32,000 nt of DNA from Candidatus Saccharimonadota bacterium (lineage in GTDB: Archaea; Nanohalarchaeota; Nanosalinia; Nanosalinales; Nanosalinaceae), in contig CP012986.1 of assembly GCA_001761425.1 (NCBI GenBank), positions 720,001-752,000 on the forward strand. Reading direction: 5' to 3'. The position numbers and the translations under genes are program-made. The notes under the pieces were generated by a model, which saw only the letters and a program-made list of their open reading frames with translations, ran no database searches and had not been told where the DNA came from. Shown here piece by piece: positions 6,316 to 9,114 of the stretch. How positions within the stretch are numbered: position 1 is the stretch's first letter; the number at the start of each line of letters is the position of its first letter.

Positions 6316-6344
6316 ATGGTCCACCCGGGACTCGAACCCGGGAC
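6316..6344 (-). repeat. 29-bp direct repeat: orphan copy of the tRNA-Ile 3' end (T-arm plus acceptor)
   Basis: ATGGTCCACCCGGGACTCGAACCCGGGAC at 6316-6344 is identical to 7125-7153. Identity stops on both sides. Confidence 0.9.
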
Positions 6345-6377: not shown

Positions 6378-6731
6378 ATGAAAACTAAGAGCACGAAGCC
6401 AGAAGAATCGCCCAGTTTCGAGGACTACAACGATTTTATGAAGTTCCTCACAAAGTCGGGAGTAGAAGATATACTTGTACTGAAAAGAGACACCTTCAGA
6501 GACGTAACCACGCCGAAAAGGACAGAAATAATCGAAACGATCCAGAAAGAAGAAATCTCTTCAATCAGAGACCTCTCAAGAAAACTTGACAGAAAAGTCA
6601 GCGCAGTACACAAAGACCTTGAAGTACTCTACGAAAGCAACGTCATCGACTTCAGAAAGGAAAAAGAAAGCAAGATACCAGAAATAAAACACCAAAATAT
6701 TCTACCAGAACCGCTCGTCTACAACGACTGA
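6378..6731 (+). CDS. Winged-helix DNA-binding protein (HVO_A0114-like/MarR-like wHTH)
   Basis: ISSIRDLSRKLDRKVSAVHKDLEVLYESNVIDFRKEKESKIPEIKHQNILPEPL matches the small archaeal wHTH pattern. AGGTGA Shine-Dalgarno at 6364-6369, 8 nt before ATG 6378. The track start 6261 reads through the tRNA fragment and is rejected. Confidence 0.55.
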   Translation: MKTKSTKPEESPSFEDYNDFMKFLTKSGVEDILVLKRDTFRDVTTPKRTEIIETIQKEEISSIRDLSRKLDRKVSAVHKDLEVLYESNVIDFRKEKESKIPEIKHQNILPEPLVYND

Positions 6732-6950: not shown

Positions 6951-7125
6951 AAAGAGGAAATTTTGCTAAAATGTTAAATCGCTAAGTTCTGTAGATGGCC
7001 TTCATAACTCTGACAAGCATGGCCAAAACCATCATAATCTAATTTCGAGCCTTTGGCTGTTCTAAACATCGGAGCCTTGGACCAGATTCGCCCTGGTTCT
7101 CAAGTTCAATAACACAATACACAGA

Positions 7126-7326
7126 TGGTCCACCCGGGACTCGAACCCGGGACCACCGCCTCTCTTAGGCAGACGAGCTGAGCTCGTCACAGCCCGTGAT
7201 AAAACGGGTCTGTATTGCCAACTGCTGCTGGCAGTTGAGGCAGTCACACAGGCCTTTTTTCAGGCAAGTTTTTTCTGTGTGAATGTCCGTATAAGGACGG
7301 CGCTCTAACCACTGAGCTAGTGGACC
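7126..7326 (-). tRNA. tRNA-Ile, anticodon UAU, with an intron at the canonical 37/38 position
   Basis: Folded by hand. Acceptor GGTCCAC/GTGGACC (7 bp). D arm GCTC-AGTGGTTA-GAGC. Anticodon stem CCGTC/GGCGG with one G-U pair. Loop CU-UAU-A with the intron after position 37, followed by A38. Variable loop TGGTC. T arm CCGGG-TTCGAGT-CCCGG. Discriminator A. CCA is not encoded. Exon 1 is 7290-7326 and exon 2 is 7126-7161. Confidence 0.8.
7162..7289 (-). other. tRNA intron, 128 nt, four internal hairpins
   Basis: Anticodon-loop CUUA pairs with intron UAAG just before the 3' splice site, forming the central 4-bp helix of a bulge-helix-bulge with 3-nt bulges at both junctions. Hairpins on plus-strand coordinates are 7172-7188 (7 bp), 7193-7208 (5 bp), 7219-7237 (7 bp) and 7245-7281 (7 bp with a 23-nt loop containing AGGCCT). 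Confidence 0.7.
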
Positions 7327-7466
7327 CAACGAAGATTCGTTGGAGTGATCAGAACGCTCGCTGACGCGAACGTACTTCGTAACCAGTTGCAGTCGGAGGC
7401 CTTGTGGGCCTTGTTCATCCTGCGTATCTACGGTTTAAAGGTGTAATTTGAAAAAGGCTTTTATTT

Positions 7467-8249
7467 TCAGTGCTGGAGTGTTTGAGGCCTTTTGACTGTG
7501 ATATCGAGTTCTTTGAGTTTTTTATCTAGGTGCTGGTTGAGTTTTCCTATGTCTTCGGGTCTGTGGCTGTCTGTTCCCGCTGTGAAGGTTATGCCTTTCT
7601 CGATGAGTATTTCACGGAATTCTTTGGTCGGGTGTATTTCTTCGAGGCCTTGAAGTGCTCTTCCTGCGTTGATTTCTGGAATGGTTTTTGAGTGTTTGAA
7701 GGCTTCTGCGATCTGTTCGTAGTCTTCTTTGTCGGCGAATCCCTGGAACTGTGGGTTGCGTTCGAAGACGTCGATGTGTGAGGCGATGTCGAACATTTCG
7801 GATTGGATGAGTTTTTCGAGTTTCTCGAAGTATTTTTTCACTAGTTTTCTCCTGCTTTTCTTTGTCTTGTTTCTGAAGTAGTCTCTGATATGGACGTTCG
7901 TGTTTTCCAGGTTGTGTACGCTTCCGAGGCTGTAGTCGAAGTTTTTCTTGTCCAGGAATTTCCTGATGTTTTTCTCGTCTCTCGGATCGTAGTCCATCTC
8001 TACGGCGGAGTAGATGGTGATTTCTTTTCTTTCCCTGAGTTTTTCTATGGCAGTTTCTCTTCTTTCACAGGTCATGTCCAGGTTGAATCCGTTGTTGTAT
8101 TTGACCTGTTTCATCGCTTTTCTCTGTGAGACGTTGGCATGATCAGAGAAACCGATTTCTTCAAGGCCTGCTTCTTCGGCTGCTGAGGCCATCATGTGCA
8201 TTAAGCTTCCGTCGCTGTAGGTTGTATGAGTATGTAAGTCGAACTCCAT
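7467..8249 (-). CDS. PHP-domain phosphoesterase, histidinol-phosphatase (HisJ)-like
   Basis: N-terminal MEFDLHTHTTYSDGS followed by GFSDHAN and a later SHID and TDSH. These are the PHP metal-binding His/Asp motifs. Confidence 0.65.
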   Translation of the reverse strand: MEFDLHTHTTYSDGSLMHMMASAAEEAGLEEIGFSDHANVSQRKAMKQVKYNNGFNLDMTCERRETAIEKLRERKEITIYSAVEMDYDPRDEKNIRKFLDKKNFDYSLGSVHNLENTNVHIRDYFRNKTKKSRRKLVKKYFEKLEKLIQSEMFDIASHIDVFERNPQFQGFADKEDYEQIAEAFKHSKTIPEINAGRALQGLEEIHPTKEFREILIEKGITFTAGTDSHRPEDIGKLNQHLDKKLKELDITVKRPQTLQH

Positions 8250-8403: not shown

Positions 8404-9114
8404 ATGCAGATGACTAATCAGCAACAGCAGCAGTACGACCGTGGGGCAACGATTTTCTCTCCTGATGGACGTTTGTTCCAGGTTGAGTACGCTAAAGAAG
8501 CAGTTAAAAAAGGTGCTACAGCTCTAGGAGTGGTCTACGAGGACGGAGTGGTTCTTGCAGCTACACGGAATATTCCAGATCTCCAGGTCAGGAATCCTGA
8601 GAAAGTTTTCAAGATAGACAGTCATATCGGAGTCGCGACCTCAGGCCTTGTAGCAGACGGCAGAACACTTGTAGAAGAAGCGAGGAATGAAGCACAGAAG
8701 CATATGATGACTTACGATGAGGATATCCCTACTCCTGTGCTTGCGAAGTTCATCGCTGACAGATGTCAGCAGTTCACTCAGTACGGAGGAGTCAGGCCTT
8801 ACGGTCTCTCCACGATCTCCGGCGGTGTCAAGGACGGAGTTTCCAAGGTCTACCATACTGATCCTTCTGGAACTCTCTCAGAATGGAAGGCTATCGCCAT
8901 CGGTAAAGGCGGAGATGAAGCCAAGGAACACCTGGAGGAGAACTGGGAGGAAGGCCTCTCAGAGGAAGATGCAATGGAGCTTGCTGTTGAAGCCCTGGAG
9001 AAGGGAGAGGAAGACATCGGTACAGAAAACGTTGAAATGTCTGTAGTCGATGAGGAATCTCTTTTCAGGCGTGTCAGCCCTGAAGATCTTGAAGACCTGA
9101 GTGTCGACCTCTAG
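8404..9114 (+). CDS. psmA: Proteasome subunit alpha
   Basis: YDRGATIFSPDGRLFQVEYAKEAVKKGATALGV is the canonical alpha-subunit N-terminus. AGAGGTG Shine-Dalgarno lies about 10 nt upstream. Confidence 0.95.
   Translation: MQMTNQQQQQYDRGATIFSPDGRLFQVEYAKEAVKKGATALGVVYEDGVVLAATRNIPDLQVRNPEKVFKIDSHIGVATSGLVADGRTLVEEARNEAQKHMMTYDEDIPTPVLAKFIADRCQQFTQYGGVRPYGLSTISGGVKDGVSKVYHTDPSGTLSEWKAIAIGKGGDEAKEHLEENWEEGLSEEDAMELAVEALEKGEEDIGTENVEMSVVDEESLFRRVSPEDLEDLSVDL

What the first reader, a model, noticed from the sequence alone, without database searches (positions are those of the whole stretch)
7126..7326. tRNA-Ile with a genomically encoded UAU anticodon
The hand-folded cloverleaf is canonical, and the anticodon loop reads C-U-UAU-A.

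Most archaea decode AUA with a tRNA-Ile2 encoded as CAU and modified to agmatidine by TiaS. From memory, a genuine UAU tRNA-Ile has been noted only in a few reduced lineages that lack tiaS, such as Nanoarchaeum equitans and Korarchaeum.

ATA codons are used freely in the genes of this window, for example in htpX. If this organism lacks TiaS, this gene is its AUA decoder and says something about its decoding system.
Basis: partly seen in the sequence, partly recalled or inferred. Interest (0 to 1): 0.6.

Follow-up and report, generated by a model that had tools for sequence, protein, structure and literature searches.

The report
Intron-bearing tRNA-Ile(UAU) in a nanohaloarchaeon
A tiny salt-loving symbiotic archaeon reads the common isoleucine codon AUA with a directly encoded UAU-anticodon tRNA that carries a long intron, because its whole lineage lacks the enzyme (TiaS) most archaea use; the strategy is known from a few other reduced archaea, so this is a new lineage for it, not a new mechanism.

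Summary
On the minus strand of window 7126-7326 lies a canonical 73-nt tRNA with anticodon UAU. A 128-nt intron interrupts it exactly at 37/38, at a bulge-helix-bulge site. Default ARAGORN and Rfam miss the gene only because of the intron.

The genome is a 1.12-Mb nanohaloarchaeon (DPANN), close to Ca. Nanohalobium. TiaS was not found in it, nor in 69 of 70 genomes of the phylum. The one exception is a 189-aa ORF with a marginal match to one domain.

The UAU gene is present in 39 of 41 related genomes. All 24 parseable copies share an invariant anticodon arm and an intron at 37/38, and their other stems show compensatory changes. AUA makes up 34% of Ile codons. EndA, RtcB and Elp3 are present.

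The finished relative BNXNv has only two CAU tRNAs, an initiator and an elongator, so it has no tRNA-Ile2(CAU).

One caveat: this assembly shows no elongator tRNA-Met and no tRNA-Val(GAC), so its own CAU inventory cannot be closed.

The same solution is published for Nanoarchaeum, Korarchaeum and ARMAN. I found no report of it for nanohaloarchaea in the paper library. I judge it a new member of a known kind, of moderate interest. How AUG misreading is avoided remains untested.

The parts
7126..7326 (-). Whole tRNA-Ile(UAU) gene (pre-tRNA, 201 nt; no encoded CCA; discriminator A73)
   Evidence: ARAGORN -i; own structural scan; orthologues in 39/41 relatives
7290..7326 (-). 5' exon, tRNA positions 1-37: acceptor GGUCCAC, U8 A9, D arm GCUC-AGUGGUUA-GAGC, anticodon stem 5' strand CCGUC, loop CUUAUA
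7291..7293 (-). Anticodon U34 A35 U36 (reads ATA on the + strand)
   Evidence: invariant in 24/24 parsed orthologues
7162..7289 (-). 128-nt intron at 37/38. It has a conserved core (CGGAC, stem CACACAG/CUGUGUG around an A-rich loop, GCCUC) plus about 65 nt of lineage-specific hairpins before the 3' splice site
   Evidence: intron lengths in orthologues 37-128 nt
7164..7167 (-). Intron nucleotides UAAG. They pair with C32-A35 to form the 4-bp central helix of the bulge-helix-bulge motif; the bulges are UA|C (5' site) and AG|A (3' site)
   Evidence: central helix 4/4 in 16 of 24 orthologues, 3/4 in the rest
7126..7161 (-). 3' exon, positions 38-73: A38, GGCGG, variable loop UGGUC, T arm CCGGG-UUCGAGU-CCCGG, acceptor GUGGACC, A73
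6316..6344 (-). Exact 29-nt second copy of the tRNA's 3' end (T arm from position 47, acceptor 3' strand, A73, plus 1 nt), lying 809 nt downstream; att-like duplication
6378..6731 (+). 117-aa ORF between the two repeat copies, Pfam HVO_A0114 family (haloarchaeal winged-helix-like protein); likely cargo or remnant of an element inserted at the tRNA 3' end
   Evidence: 71.4 bits; downstream region not shared with relatives
8404..9114 (+). Proteasome alpha subunit gene, the conserved upstream neighbour of the tRNA in relatives (context only)

Best explanation
This is a functional, chromosomally native gene for tRNA-Ile(UAU). It is the organism's dedicated, and probably only, decoder of the abundant isoleucine codon AUA.

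Shown here. The gene encodes a canonical cloverleaf interrupted at 37/38 by a 128-nt intron that sits in a bulge-helix-bulge motif. The genome encodes the splicing endonuclease EndA and the ligase RtcB needed to remove the intron. The lineage (phylum Nanohaloarchaeota) lacks TiaS and carries this gene almost universally, with an invariant anticodon arm. AUA is a major codon.

Inferred. The pre-tRNA is cut by EndA at the two bulges and joined by RtcB. The spliced tRNA is charged by the archaeal/eukaryote-type IleRS and carries t6A37. U34 pairs with the A of AUA.

My best guess for specificity, at about 35-40%, is as follows. U34 receives an Elp3-dependent 5-substituted modification (Elp3 is present). 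Misreading of AUG is then limited by competition from elongator Met-tRNA and by co-adapted IleRS and ribosome, and not by an agmatidine-like chemical block.

The gene more likely descends from the CAU (Met/Ile2) tRNA family than from tRNA-Ile(GAU), since its D and T arms nearly match elongator tRNA-Met. That fits a C34-to-U change followed by loss of TiaS.
For: Gene and splice site.

Selection on structure: 100% pairing and 6 doubly changed pairs, with 0/500 shuffles reaching the covariation score. The anticodon arm CCGUC-CUUAUAA-GGCGG and the 37/38 intron are invariant in 24/24 orthologues across 5 families.

Distribution: both exons found in 39/41 relatives, including 21/21 high-quality genomes.

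No TiaS. The single hit is a 189-aa ORF with only a marginal FLD match, in a genome that also has the UAU gene.

No Ile2(CAU): the only intact CAU arm in a tRNA context is the initiator. The closed relative G019 (BNXNv, PMC10266531) has two CAU tRNAs, an initiator and an elongator.

Demand: ATA is 20.2 per 1000 codons, 34% of Ile codons, and occurs in 786/819 long ORFs.

Machinery: EndA, RtcB, Elp3 at 627.6 bits.

Native locus: psmA synteny upstream is conserved.

Precedent: the same arrangement, with no TiaS and no CAU Ile tRNA, is published for ARMAN, where the pre-tRNA-Ile(UAU) intron at 37/38 was spliced in vitro (PMC3239211), and for N. equitans and K. cryptofilum (PMC6000648, PMC3895270).

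Family resemblance: 75% identity to elongator Met and 77% to Val-GAC, with Ile-GAU below 67%.
Against: This assembly has no detectable elongator tRNA-Met or tRNA-Val(GAC). Its tRNA inventory is therefore demonstrably incomplete, and a hidden CAU tRNA cannot be formally excluded in this genome.

TiaS absence rests on one Pfam domain model.

The unconstrained minimum-energy fold of the anticodon arm plus intron does not form the BHB. It forms a competing pair of hairpins instead.

In haloarchaea an engineered U34 tRNA-Ile becomes cnm5U34, binds AUG as well as AUA, and is a poor IleRS substrate (PMC3895270). An Elp3-type modification alone therefore would not explain fidelity.

The identity comparison with other tRNAs is too shallow to fix the gene's ancestry.
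Confidence: 0.82

Rival explanations
1. The gene is the AUA decoder, but U34 is left unmodified. Discrimination against AUG is done by the ribosome and a specially adapted IleRS, as shown for Mycoplasma mobile and the Bacillus subtilis tilS-deletion suppressor.
For: M. mobile tRNA-Ile(UAU) is unmodified and reads only AUA on its own ribosome (PMC3575796). The B. subtilis case is cited in PMC3895270. The anticodon arm is absolutely invariant across five families, which would fit tight co-adaptation with IleRS and the ribosome.
Against: Elp3 is present. In halophilic archaea a U34 placed in tRNA-Ile is modified by default to cnm5U (PMC3895270). Archaeal IleRS is of the eukaryote type, so the mycoplasma Arg865 mechanism does not carry over directly (PMC3575796).
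Confidence: 0.25
2. The intron is retained because it is required for an anticodon modification made on the pre-tRNA, which confers AUA specificity. This would parallel eukaryotic tRNA-Ile(UAU), where pseudouridines 34 and 36 are made only on the intron-containing precursor.
For: Every parsed orthologue (24/24) keeps an intron at 37/38 with a conserved core. This includes BNXNv, where only 4 of 38 tRNA genes have introns (PMC10266531). In contrast, Ile-GAU, Val-UAC, Lys-CUU, Asn and Thr carry introns in this genome but not in BNXNv. The UAU tRNA-Ile of ARMAN-2 and Korarchaeum also carries an intron (PMC3239211, PMC6000648). Cbf5 and fibrillarin are present.
Against: No TruA/Pus1-type synthase was found. 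I found no box C/D, box H/ACA or long guide element in the intron (by eye). Intron retention could simply be historical. The eukaryotic intron dependence is recalled from my own knowledge and was not checked in a paper here.
Confidence: 0.15
3. The tRNA is redundant or not the real AUA decoder. A tRNA-Ile2(CAU) and an unrecognised C34-modifying enzyme exist but were missed, or the gene came in on a mobile element as an accessory tRNA.
For: The tRNA inventory of this assembly is incomplete: elongator Met and Val-GAC were not found. A 29-nt att-like repeat and a variable region adjoin the gene.
Against: The closed BNXNv genome has only two CAU tRNAs, and archaea need both an initiator and an elongator. 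TiaS is missing phylum-wide. The gene lies at a conserved position next to psmA and is present in 39/41 genomes with purifying selection. The repeat duplicates the tRNA's 3' end, which marks the tRNA as the target of an insertion and not as its cargo.
Confidence: 0.04

Closest known systems
tRNA-Ile(UAU) of the ARMAN lineages (Ca. Micrarchaeum / Parvarchaeum; Fujishima et al. 2011, PMC3239211)
   Same: These are DPANN archaea that lack both TiaS and tRNA-Ile(CAU). AUA is assigned to a genomically encoded UAU tRNA. In ARMAN-2 the gene has an intron at the canonical 37/38 site in a strict hBHBh' motif, and that intron was shown to be cleaved in vitro.
   Different: The ARMAN-2 intron is 25 nt; here it is 128 nt (37-128 nt across the phylum) and has a conserved structured core. 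ARMAN uses a three-unit epsilon2 endonuclease; here EndA is a single 179-aa unit. The habitat is hypersaline, not acidic, and the phylum is different.
tRNA-Ile(UAU) of Nanoarchaeum equitans and Korarchaeum cryptofilum (PMC6000648, PMC3895270)
   Same: These are archaea reported to encode a UAU tRNA-Ile; PMC3575796 links TAT-anticodon tRNA-Ile genes to archaea that lack a tiaS homologue, citing the papers on these two genomes. The Korarchaeum gene has an intron.
   Different: The Korarchaeum gene most resembles that genome's own tRNA-Ile(GAU) (PMC6000648). Here the gene resembles elongator tRNA-Met and Val-GAC more than Ile-GAU, which suggests an independent origin. Those cases are single species; here the trait spans a whole phylum sample of 70 genomes.
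Engineered U34 mutants of Haloarcula marismortui tRNA-Ile in Haloferax volcanii (Mandal et al. 2014, PMC3895270)
   Same: A UAU-anticodon isoleucine tRNA working in a high-salt archaeal cytoplasm. This is the closest experimental model for what happens to U34 there: it becomes cnm5U.
   Different: The mutants are artificial, bind AUG and AUU as well as AUA, are poor IleRS substrates and slow growth. The natural nanohaloarchaeal tRNA is conserved and presumably accurate, so something in the tRNA, IleRS, ribosome or modification must differ.
Bacterial tRNA-Ile2(UAU) in tilS-less bacteria (Mycoplasma mobile; PMC3575796)
   Same: The C34-modifying enzyme has been lost and replaced by a directly encoded UAU anticodon.
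   Different: These are bacteria, with no intron, a bacterial-type IleRS with a defined Arg865 adaptation, and U34 shown to be unmodified.
Eukaryotic cytoplasmic tRNA-Ile(UAU)
   Same: An encoded UAU anticodon, a eukaryote/archaeal-type IleRS, and a gene that always carries an intron next to the anticodon (from my own knowledge).
   Different: Eukaryotes convert U34 and U36 to pseudouridine with a Pus1-type enzyme. No TruA/Pus1-family gene was found here.

Membership tests
Genomically encoded tRNA-Ile(UAU) AUA decoder of TiaS-less archaea | Canonical cloverleaf tRNA with conserved tertiary positions (U8, A14, G18 G19, G53 U54 U55 C56, A58, C61) | tested here: met
   all stems pair, and these positions are invariant in the alignment
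Genomically encoded tRNA-Ile(UAU) AUA decoder of TiaS-less archaea | Anticodon UAU in the spliced product | tested here: met
   ARAGORN and the BHB geometry agree on a 37/38 junction. 24/24 orthologues give the loop CUUAUAA. The splicing itself was not observed
Genomically encoded tRNA-Ile(UAU) AUA decoder of TiaS-less archaea | No TiaS homologue in the genome | tested here: met
   PF08489: 0 matches in the window's genome (98.75% complete), 0/41 relatives, 1/70 in the phylum (a marginal fragment); 4/4 archaeal control genomes match
Genomically encoded tRNA-Ile(UAU) AUA decoder of TiaS-less archaea | No tRNA-Ile2 with a CAU anticodon | tested here: inconclusive
   Met in the closed relative BNXNv, which has only initiator and elongator CAU tRNAs. 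In this genome only the initiator was found and the elongator is missing from the assembly, so the inventory is incomplete
Genomically encoded tRNA-Ile(UAU) AUA decoder of TiaS-less archaea | AUA codons are actually used in the proteome | tested here: met
   20.2 per 1000 codons, 34% of Ile codons
Genomically encoded tRNA-Ile(UAU) AUA decoder of TiaS-less archaea | Charged with isoleucine and reads AUA but not AUG | not testable with these tools
   Needs aminoacylation and ribosome-binding assays
Archaeal bulge-helix-bulge (BHB) tRNA intron | 4-bp central helix flanked by two 3-nt bulges on opposite strands, with both splice sites at equivalent positions in the bulges | tested here: met
   CUUA/UAAG helix, bulges UA|C and AG|A, outer helix is the anticodon stem, inner helix GG/CC. 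Caveat: the unconstrained MFE prefers a competing fold
Archaeal bulge-helix-bulge (BHB) tRNA intron | Splicing endonuclease and RNA ligase encoded in the genome | tested here: met
   EndA at 92.4 bits with Pfam and TIGR00324 at 106 bits; RtcB at 544.7 bits
Archaeal bulge-helix-bulge (BHB) tRNA intron | Intron excised in vivo | not testable with these tools
Box C/D guide RNA embedded in a tRNA intron (as in haloarchaeal pre-tRNA-Trp) | C (RUGAUGA) and D (CUGA) boxes framing a guide complementary to the target | tested here: not met
   No such motifs in the conserved intron core when aligned by eye across 24 introns. No Rfam hit even at E<=10

The most novel reading that the evidence does not exclude
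The intron of tRNA-Ile(UAU), which is always retained and has a conserved core, is functionally required. On the precursor it presents the anticodon for a wobble or anticodon modification that restricts U34 to reading A. That would make nanohaloarchaea an archaeal parallel of the intron-dependent modification of eukaryotic tRNA-Ile(UAU). The conserved competing fold (exon GUCC with intron GGAC; intron GCCUN with N'AGGC across the 3' junction) could be part of that recognition.
Probability: 0.15. Interest if true: 0.65.

Novelty: new member of a known kind. Interest (0 to 1): 0.4.

Why it matters
AUA is the one codon that nearly all bacteria and archaea read through a chemically rewritten cytidine. 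Lineages that abandoned that system show how the genetic code can be kept accurate by other means.

This analysis shows that an entire archaeal phylum, and not just isolated species, uses an encoded UAU tRNA for a codon that makes up a third of its isoleucines.

Experiments in the haloarchaea that host these organisms showed that a UAU tRNA-Ile misreads AUG and is poorly charged (PMC3895270). The natural nanohaloarchaeal system must therefore contain a fix.

Several nanohaloarchaea now grow in defined co-cultures (PMC10266531). The tRNA, its modification state, its IleRS and its ribosome can therefore be studied directly, which has not been practical for most other TiaS-less archaea.

Tried and rejected
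**Detection tools**
- Default ARAGORN and Rfam (gathering threshold, and E<=10) found nothing at the locus. This is explained by the 128-nt intron and is not evidence against the gene.

**Search for a second CAU tRNA or the elongator tRNA-Met in this genome (all negative)**
- RF00005 over the genome.
- T-arm, acceptor and D-arm structural scans, strict and relaxed.
- CAU anticodon-arm scans, intact and BHB-interrupted. The scan was too unspecific to use.
- nhmmer with a profile of this genome's own tRNAs and with elongator-Met and Val-GAC profiles from 12 relatives.
- blastn-short and synteny walks from G019 and G002.
- In-silico removal of 250,421 strict and 918,982 relaxed BHB candidates followed by ARAGORN.

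**ARAGORN calls rejected as false**
- 'tRNA-Ala(agc)' at 625991: weak stems inside coding sequence.
- 'tRNA-Asp(gtc)' at 726317: it is the 28-nt 3'-end copy plus coding sequence.
- 'Tyr(ata)' and 'Asp(atc)' in four orthologous loci: mis-set splice sites that parse as Ile(UAU).

**Other ideas considered**
- Haloarchaeal contamination as the source of the single TiaS_FLD hit: not supported, since the contig has 47% GC. The ORF is still too short and too weak to be TiaS.
- A box C/D guide in the intron: no motifs found.
- An empty-site comparison for the 780-bp segment between the direct repeats: not possible, because no relative shares the downstream flank.

Full report
**1. The observation**

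Read on the minus strand, window 7326 to 7126 gives:
- GGUCCAC-UA-GCUC-AGUGGUUA-GAGC-G-CCGUC-CUUAUA
- then 128 nt
- then A-GGCGG-UGGUC-CCGGG-UUCGAGU-CCCGG-GUGGACC-A.

ARAGORN with introns allowed reports exactly this. It calls tRNA-Ile(tat), 73 nt, with a 128-nt intron between positions 37 and 38, at genome c[727126,727326], which is window 7126-7326. Default ARAGORN and Rfam report nothing. A 128-nt insertion in a 73-nt RNA is enough to explain that.

**2. The splice site**

I tested the junction independently of ARAGORN by searching the precursor for bulge-helix-bulge geometry.
- C32-A35 (CUUA) pair with the intron nucleotides UAAG.
- The flanking 3-nt bulges are UA|C and AG|A.
- The anticodon stem is the outer helix, and GG/CC is the inner helix.
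- This is the only candidate with full outer and inner helices whose removal restores a cloverleaf.
- The same site comes out of two genome-wide in-silico splicing screens.

One caveat applies. An unconstrained energy minimisation of the anticodon arm plus intron does not form this structure. It pairs exon GUCC with intron GGAC, and intron GCCUC with GAGGC across the 3' junction. The BHB is therefore a well-supported model but not the isolated thermodynamic optimum.

**3. The organism**

- The window lies in a single-contig genome of 1,118,574 bp with 46.4% GC, estimated 98.75% complete.
- The neighbouring genes are archaeal: proteasome alpha subunit, FttA/aCPSF1 and geranylgeranyl reductase.
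- The FttA protein is 92% identical to that of Ca. Nanohalobium MAGs and 76-86% identical to those of other nanohaloarchaea.
- The organism is therefore a nanohaloarchaeon, a DPANN symbiont of haloarchaea.

**4. Conservation**

- Both exons are found in 39 of 41 related genomes spanning five families, including all 21 high-quality genomes.
- Twenty-four loci could be parsed end to end. All have the identical anticodon arm CCGUC-CUUAUAA-GGCGG, including the U30-G40 wobble pair.
- All have an intron exactly at 37/38, of 37 to 128 nt, with a central BHB helix of 4/4 pairs in 16 cases and 3/4 in 8.
- Four loci that ARAGORN labelled Tyr(ata) or Asp(atc) are the same gene with a mis-set junction.
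- The acceptor and T stems vary by compensatory changes, for example GGUCCAC/GUGGACC, GCUCCAC/GUGGAGC and GGACCCG/CGGGUCC.
- On ten distinct sequences every one of 210 stem cells is a standard pair, and six pairs change on both sides. No shuffle out of 500 reaches the covariation score, and sliding the partners drops pairing to 31-53%.
- This is a tRNA under purifying selection, not a pseudogene.

**5. Is it the AUA decoder?**

- *TiaS.* The TiaS FLD domain (PF08489) matches in all four archaeal control genomes. It has no match in this genome, none in 41/41 relatives, and one in 70 genomes of the phylum.
- *The one exception.* That hit is a 189-aa ORF scoring 23.2 bits against a 21-bit cut-off, with no other TiaS domain. 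Its genome also carries the UAU gene. The contig has 47% GC, so the hit looks like a relic and not like host contamination.
- *Demand.* In 819 long ORFs, ATA is used 5,880 times. That is 20.2 per 1000 codons and 34% of Ile codons, and 786 ORFs contain it.
- *CAU tRNAs.* The only CAU tRNA in this genome is an initiator with A1-U72 and three G-C pairs closing the anticodon stem.
- *A finished relative.* G019 matches Ca. Nanohalovita haloferacivicina BNXNv by exact length (1,046,959 bp) and GC content, and that genome is a closed circle (PMC10266531). It has two CAU tRNAs, the same initiator and an intron-bearing elongator, plus Ile(UAU) and Ile(GAU). That leaves no room for a tRNA-Ile2(CAU).

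**6. An unresolved gap**

In this assembly I could not find an elongator tRNA-Met or a tRNA-Val(GAC).
- I tried covariance, structural, profile, BLAST, synteny and exhaustive in-silico splicing searches.
- In relatives the two genes are adjacent, at the edge of a variable island.
- The flanks map to 462,988-467,291 and 477,262-477,636 of this genome. Between them lie about 10 kb of pilin-like genes and no tRNA.
- GUC and GUU together make up 37 per 1000 codons, so the Val tRNA should be essential.
- The most likely reading is an assembly omission.

As a result, the statement 'no Ile2(CAU)' is secure for the lineage but formally open for this assembly.

**7. Machinery and mechanism**

- *Present:* one EndA (179 aa, TIGR00324), RtcB, a full-length Elp3 (TIGR01211, 627.6 bits against a 350-bit cut-off), fibrillarin and Cbf5.
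- *Not found:* a TruA/Pus1-type synthase.

Cleavage at the BHB by EndA and ligation by RtcB follow from established archaeal biology. They were shown in vitro for the ARMAN-2 pre-tRNA-Ile(UAU) (PMC3239211).

How AUG is avoided is unknown.
- In haloarchaea an engineered U34 tRNA-Ile acquires cnm5U. It binds AUA more than AUG more than AUU, and is poorly charged (PMC3895270).
- In Mycoplasma mobile U34 is unmodified, and specificity comes from IleRS and the ribosome (PMC3575796).
- Because Elp3 is present, I favour an Elp3-dependent modification plus competition and co-adaptation, but only at 35-40%.

**8. Origin**

The gene shares near-identical D and T arms with elongator tRNA-Met (GCUCAG.GGUUAGAGC; GGUCCCGGGUUCGA.UCCCGG). 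In BNXNv it is 75% identical to elongator Met and 77% to Val(GAC), while Ile(GAU) is below 67%.

This contrasts with Korarchaeum, whose UAU tRNA most resembles its own Ile(GAU) (PMC6000648). It fits descent from a CAU-family tRNA by a C34-to-U change. The evidence for this is thin.

**9. Surroundings**

- The last 28 nt of the tRNA plus one base are repeated exactly 809 nt downstream, at 6316-6344 and 7125-7153.
- The 780 bp between the copies encode a 117-aa HVO_A0114-family protein.
- Upstream synteny with psmA is conserved, but nothing downstream is shared with any relative compared.

The tRNA's 3' end is therefore the border of a variable region, as expected for an integration target. No integrase is present, and no empty site could be shown.

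**10. Comparison with what is known**

A UAU tRNA-Ile is published for Nanoarchaeum equitans, Korarchaeum cryptofilum and the ARMAN lineages; for ARMAN the source states explicitly that both TiaS and tRNA-Ile(CAU) are lacking (PMC3239211, PMC6000648, PMC3895270, PMC3575796). A survey of 167 archaeal genomes found the UAU gene in only two (PMC6000648).

In the held paper library I found no paper that connects nanohaloarchaea with this trait. The genome paper for cultured strains only counts tRNAs and introns. Public annotation pipelines would nevertheless label the gene correctly.

I therefore class it as a new member of a known kind. The additions are:
- phylum-wide distribution;
- an invariant anticodon arm;
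- an intron that is always retained, even where most other tRNA introns have been lost;
- relevance to the haloarchaeal misreading experiments.

An earlier first-stage note of this scan had already described the 128-nt intron on this same stretch (e1-2717041).

Noticed in passing
whole genome (G000); expected near genome 467,300-477,260: No elongator tRNA-Met(CAU) and no tRNA-Val(GAC) can be found in this single-contig, 98.75%-complete assembly by any method tried. In relatives the two genes sit side by side at the edge of a variable island. Probably an assembly omission, but it could be unusual gene structures.
   Followed up: yes
window 6316-6344 and 7125-7153; ORF 6378-6731 (+): An exact 29-nt direct repeat of the tRNA's 3' end brackets 780 bp encoding an HVO_A0114-family protein. 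It looks like an att-like scar of an insertion into the tRNA gene. Similar partial 3'-end copies follow tRNA-Tyr (genome 843,083-843,107), tRNA-Pro(GGG), the initiator tRNA-Met and tRNA-Lys(UUU).
   Followed up: partly
window 7162-7289 and orthologous introns in L019-L046: The introns share a conserved core ([C/A]GGAC, CACACAG, A-rich loop, CUGUGUG, GCCU) and differ by hairpins inserted before the 3' splice site. Exon GUCC:intron GGAC and intron GCCUN:N'AGGC can form a competing fold that the energy model prefers. The base after GCCU is C in all 13 cases where the last intron base is G.
   Followed up: partly
L100-L111 (elongator tRNA-Met genes of relatives), e.g. L100:1501-1642: The elongator tRNA-Met introns begin with UUAUGAGC, the exact complement of the anticodon loop GCUCAUAA. 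This is followed by AAUGAG, and later by a conserved GAUGAUUAAA and GUGAGA. It may be a box C/D-like guide for 2'-O-methylation of C34 carried in cis.
   Followed up: no
genome 34,568-34,729 and 35,971-36,076 (-): Two tRNA-Gln genes share a roughly 31-nt insert in the D arm, and one also has an anticodon-loop intron. Removing the D-arm insert restores tRNA-Gln(CUG). This is notable because the only EndA found is a single 179-aa unit, a type usually considered limited to canonical introns.
   Followed up: partly
genome 794,401-794,525 (+): tRNA-Cys(GCA) has an intron and an unusual T-loop, UGCAAAU, with G where the near-universal U55 should be.
   Followed up: no
L112:62-631 (-) (genome G054, contig 58): A 189-aa ORF with a marginal TiaS FLD-domain match (23 bits) lies on a 47%-GC contig next to an MFS transporter. 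It is the only such hit in 70 genomes of the phylum and may be a relic of a lost tiaS.
   Followed up: partly
window 7210-7233 (-), intron nt 53-76: The intron hairpin CAACUGCCAGCAGCAGUUGGCAAU has 88-96% matches of 23-30 nt at unrelated loci in several other nanohaloarchaeal genomes, but nowhere else in this genome. Its origin is unknown.
   Followed up: no
window 7327-7345 (-): A perfect 8-bp hairpin, CCAACGAA-UC-UUCGUUGG, lies immediately upstream of the tRNA, ending one nucleotide before its 5' end. The nearest TATA-like element (TTTAAA) is about 110 nt upstream, which suggests a long structured leader or co-transcription with the PHP-domain gene at 7467-8249.
   Followed up: no
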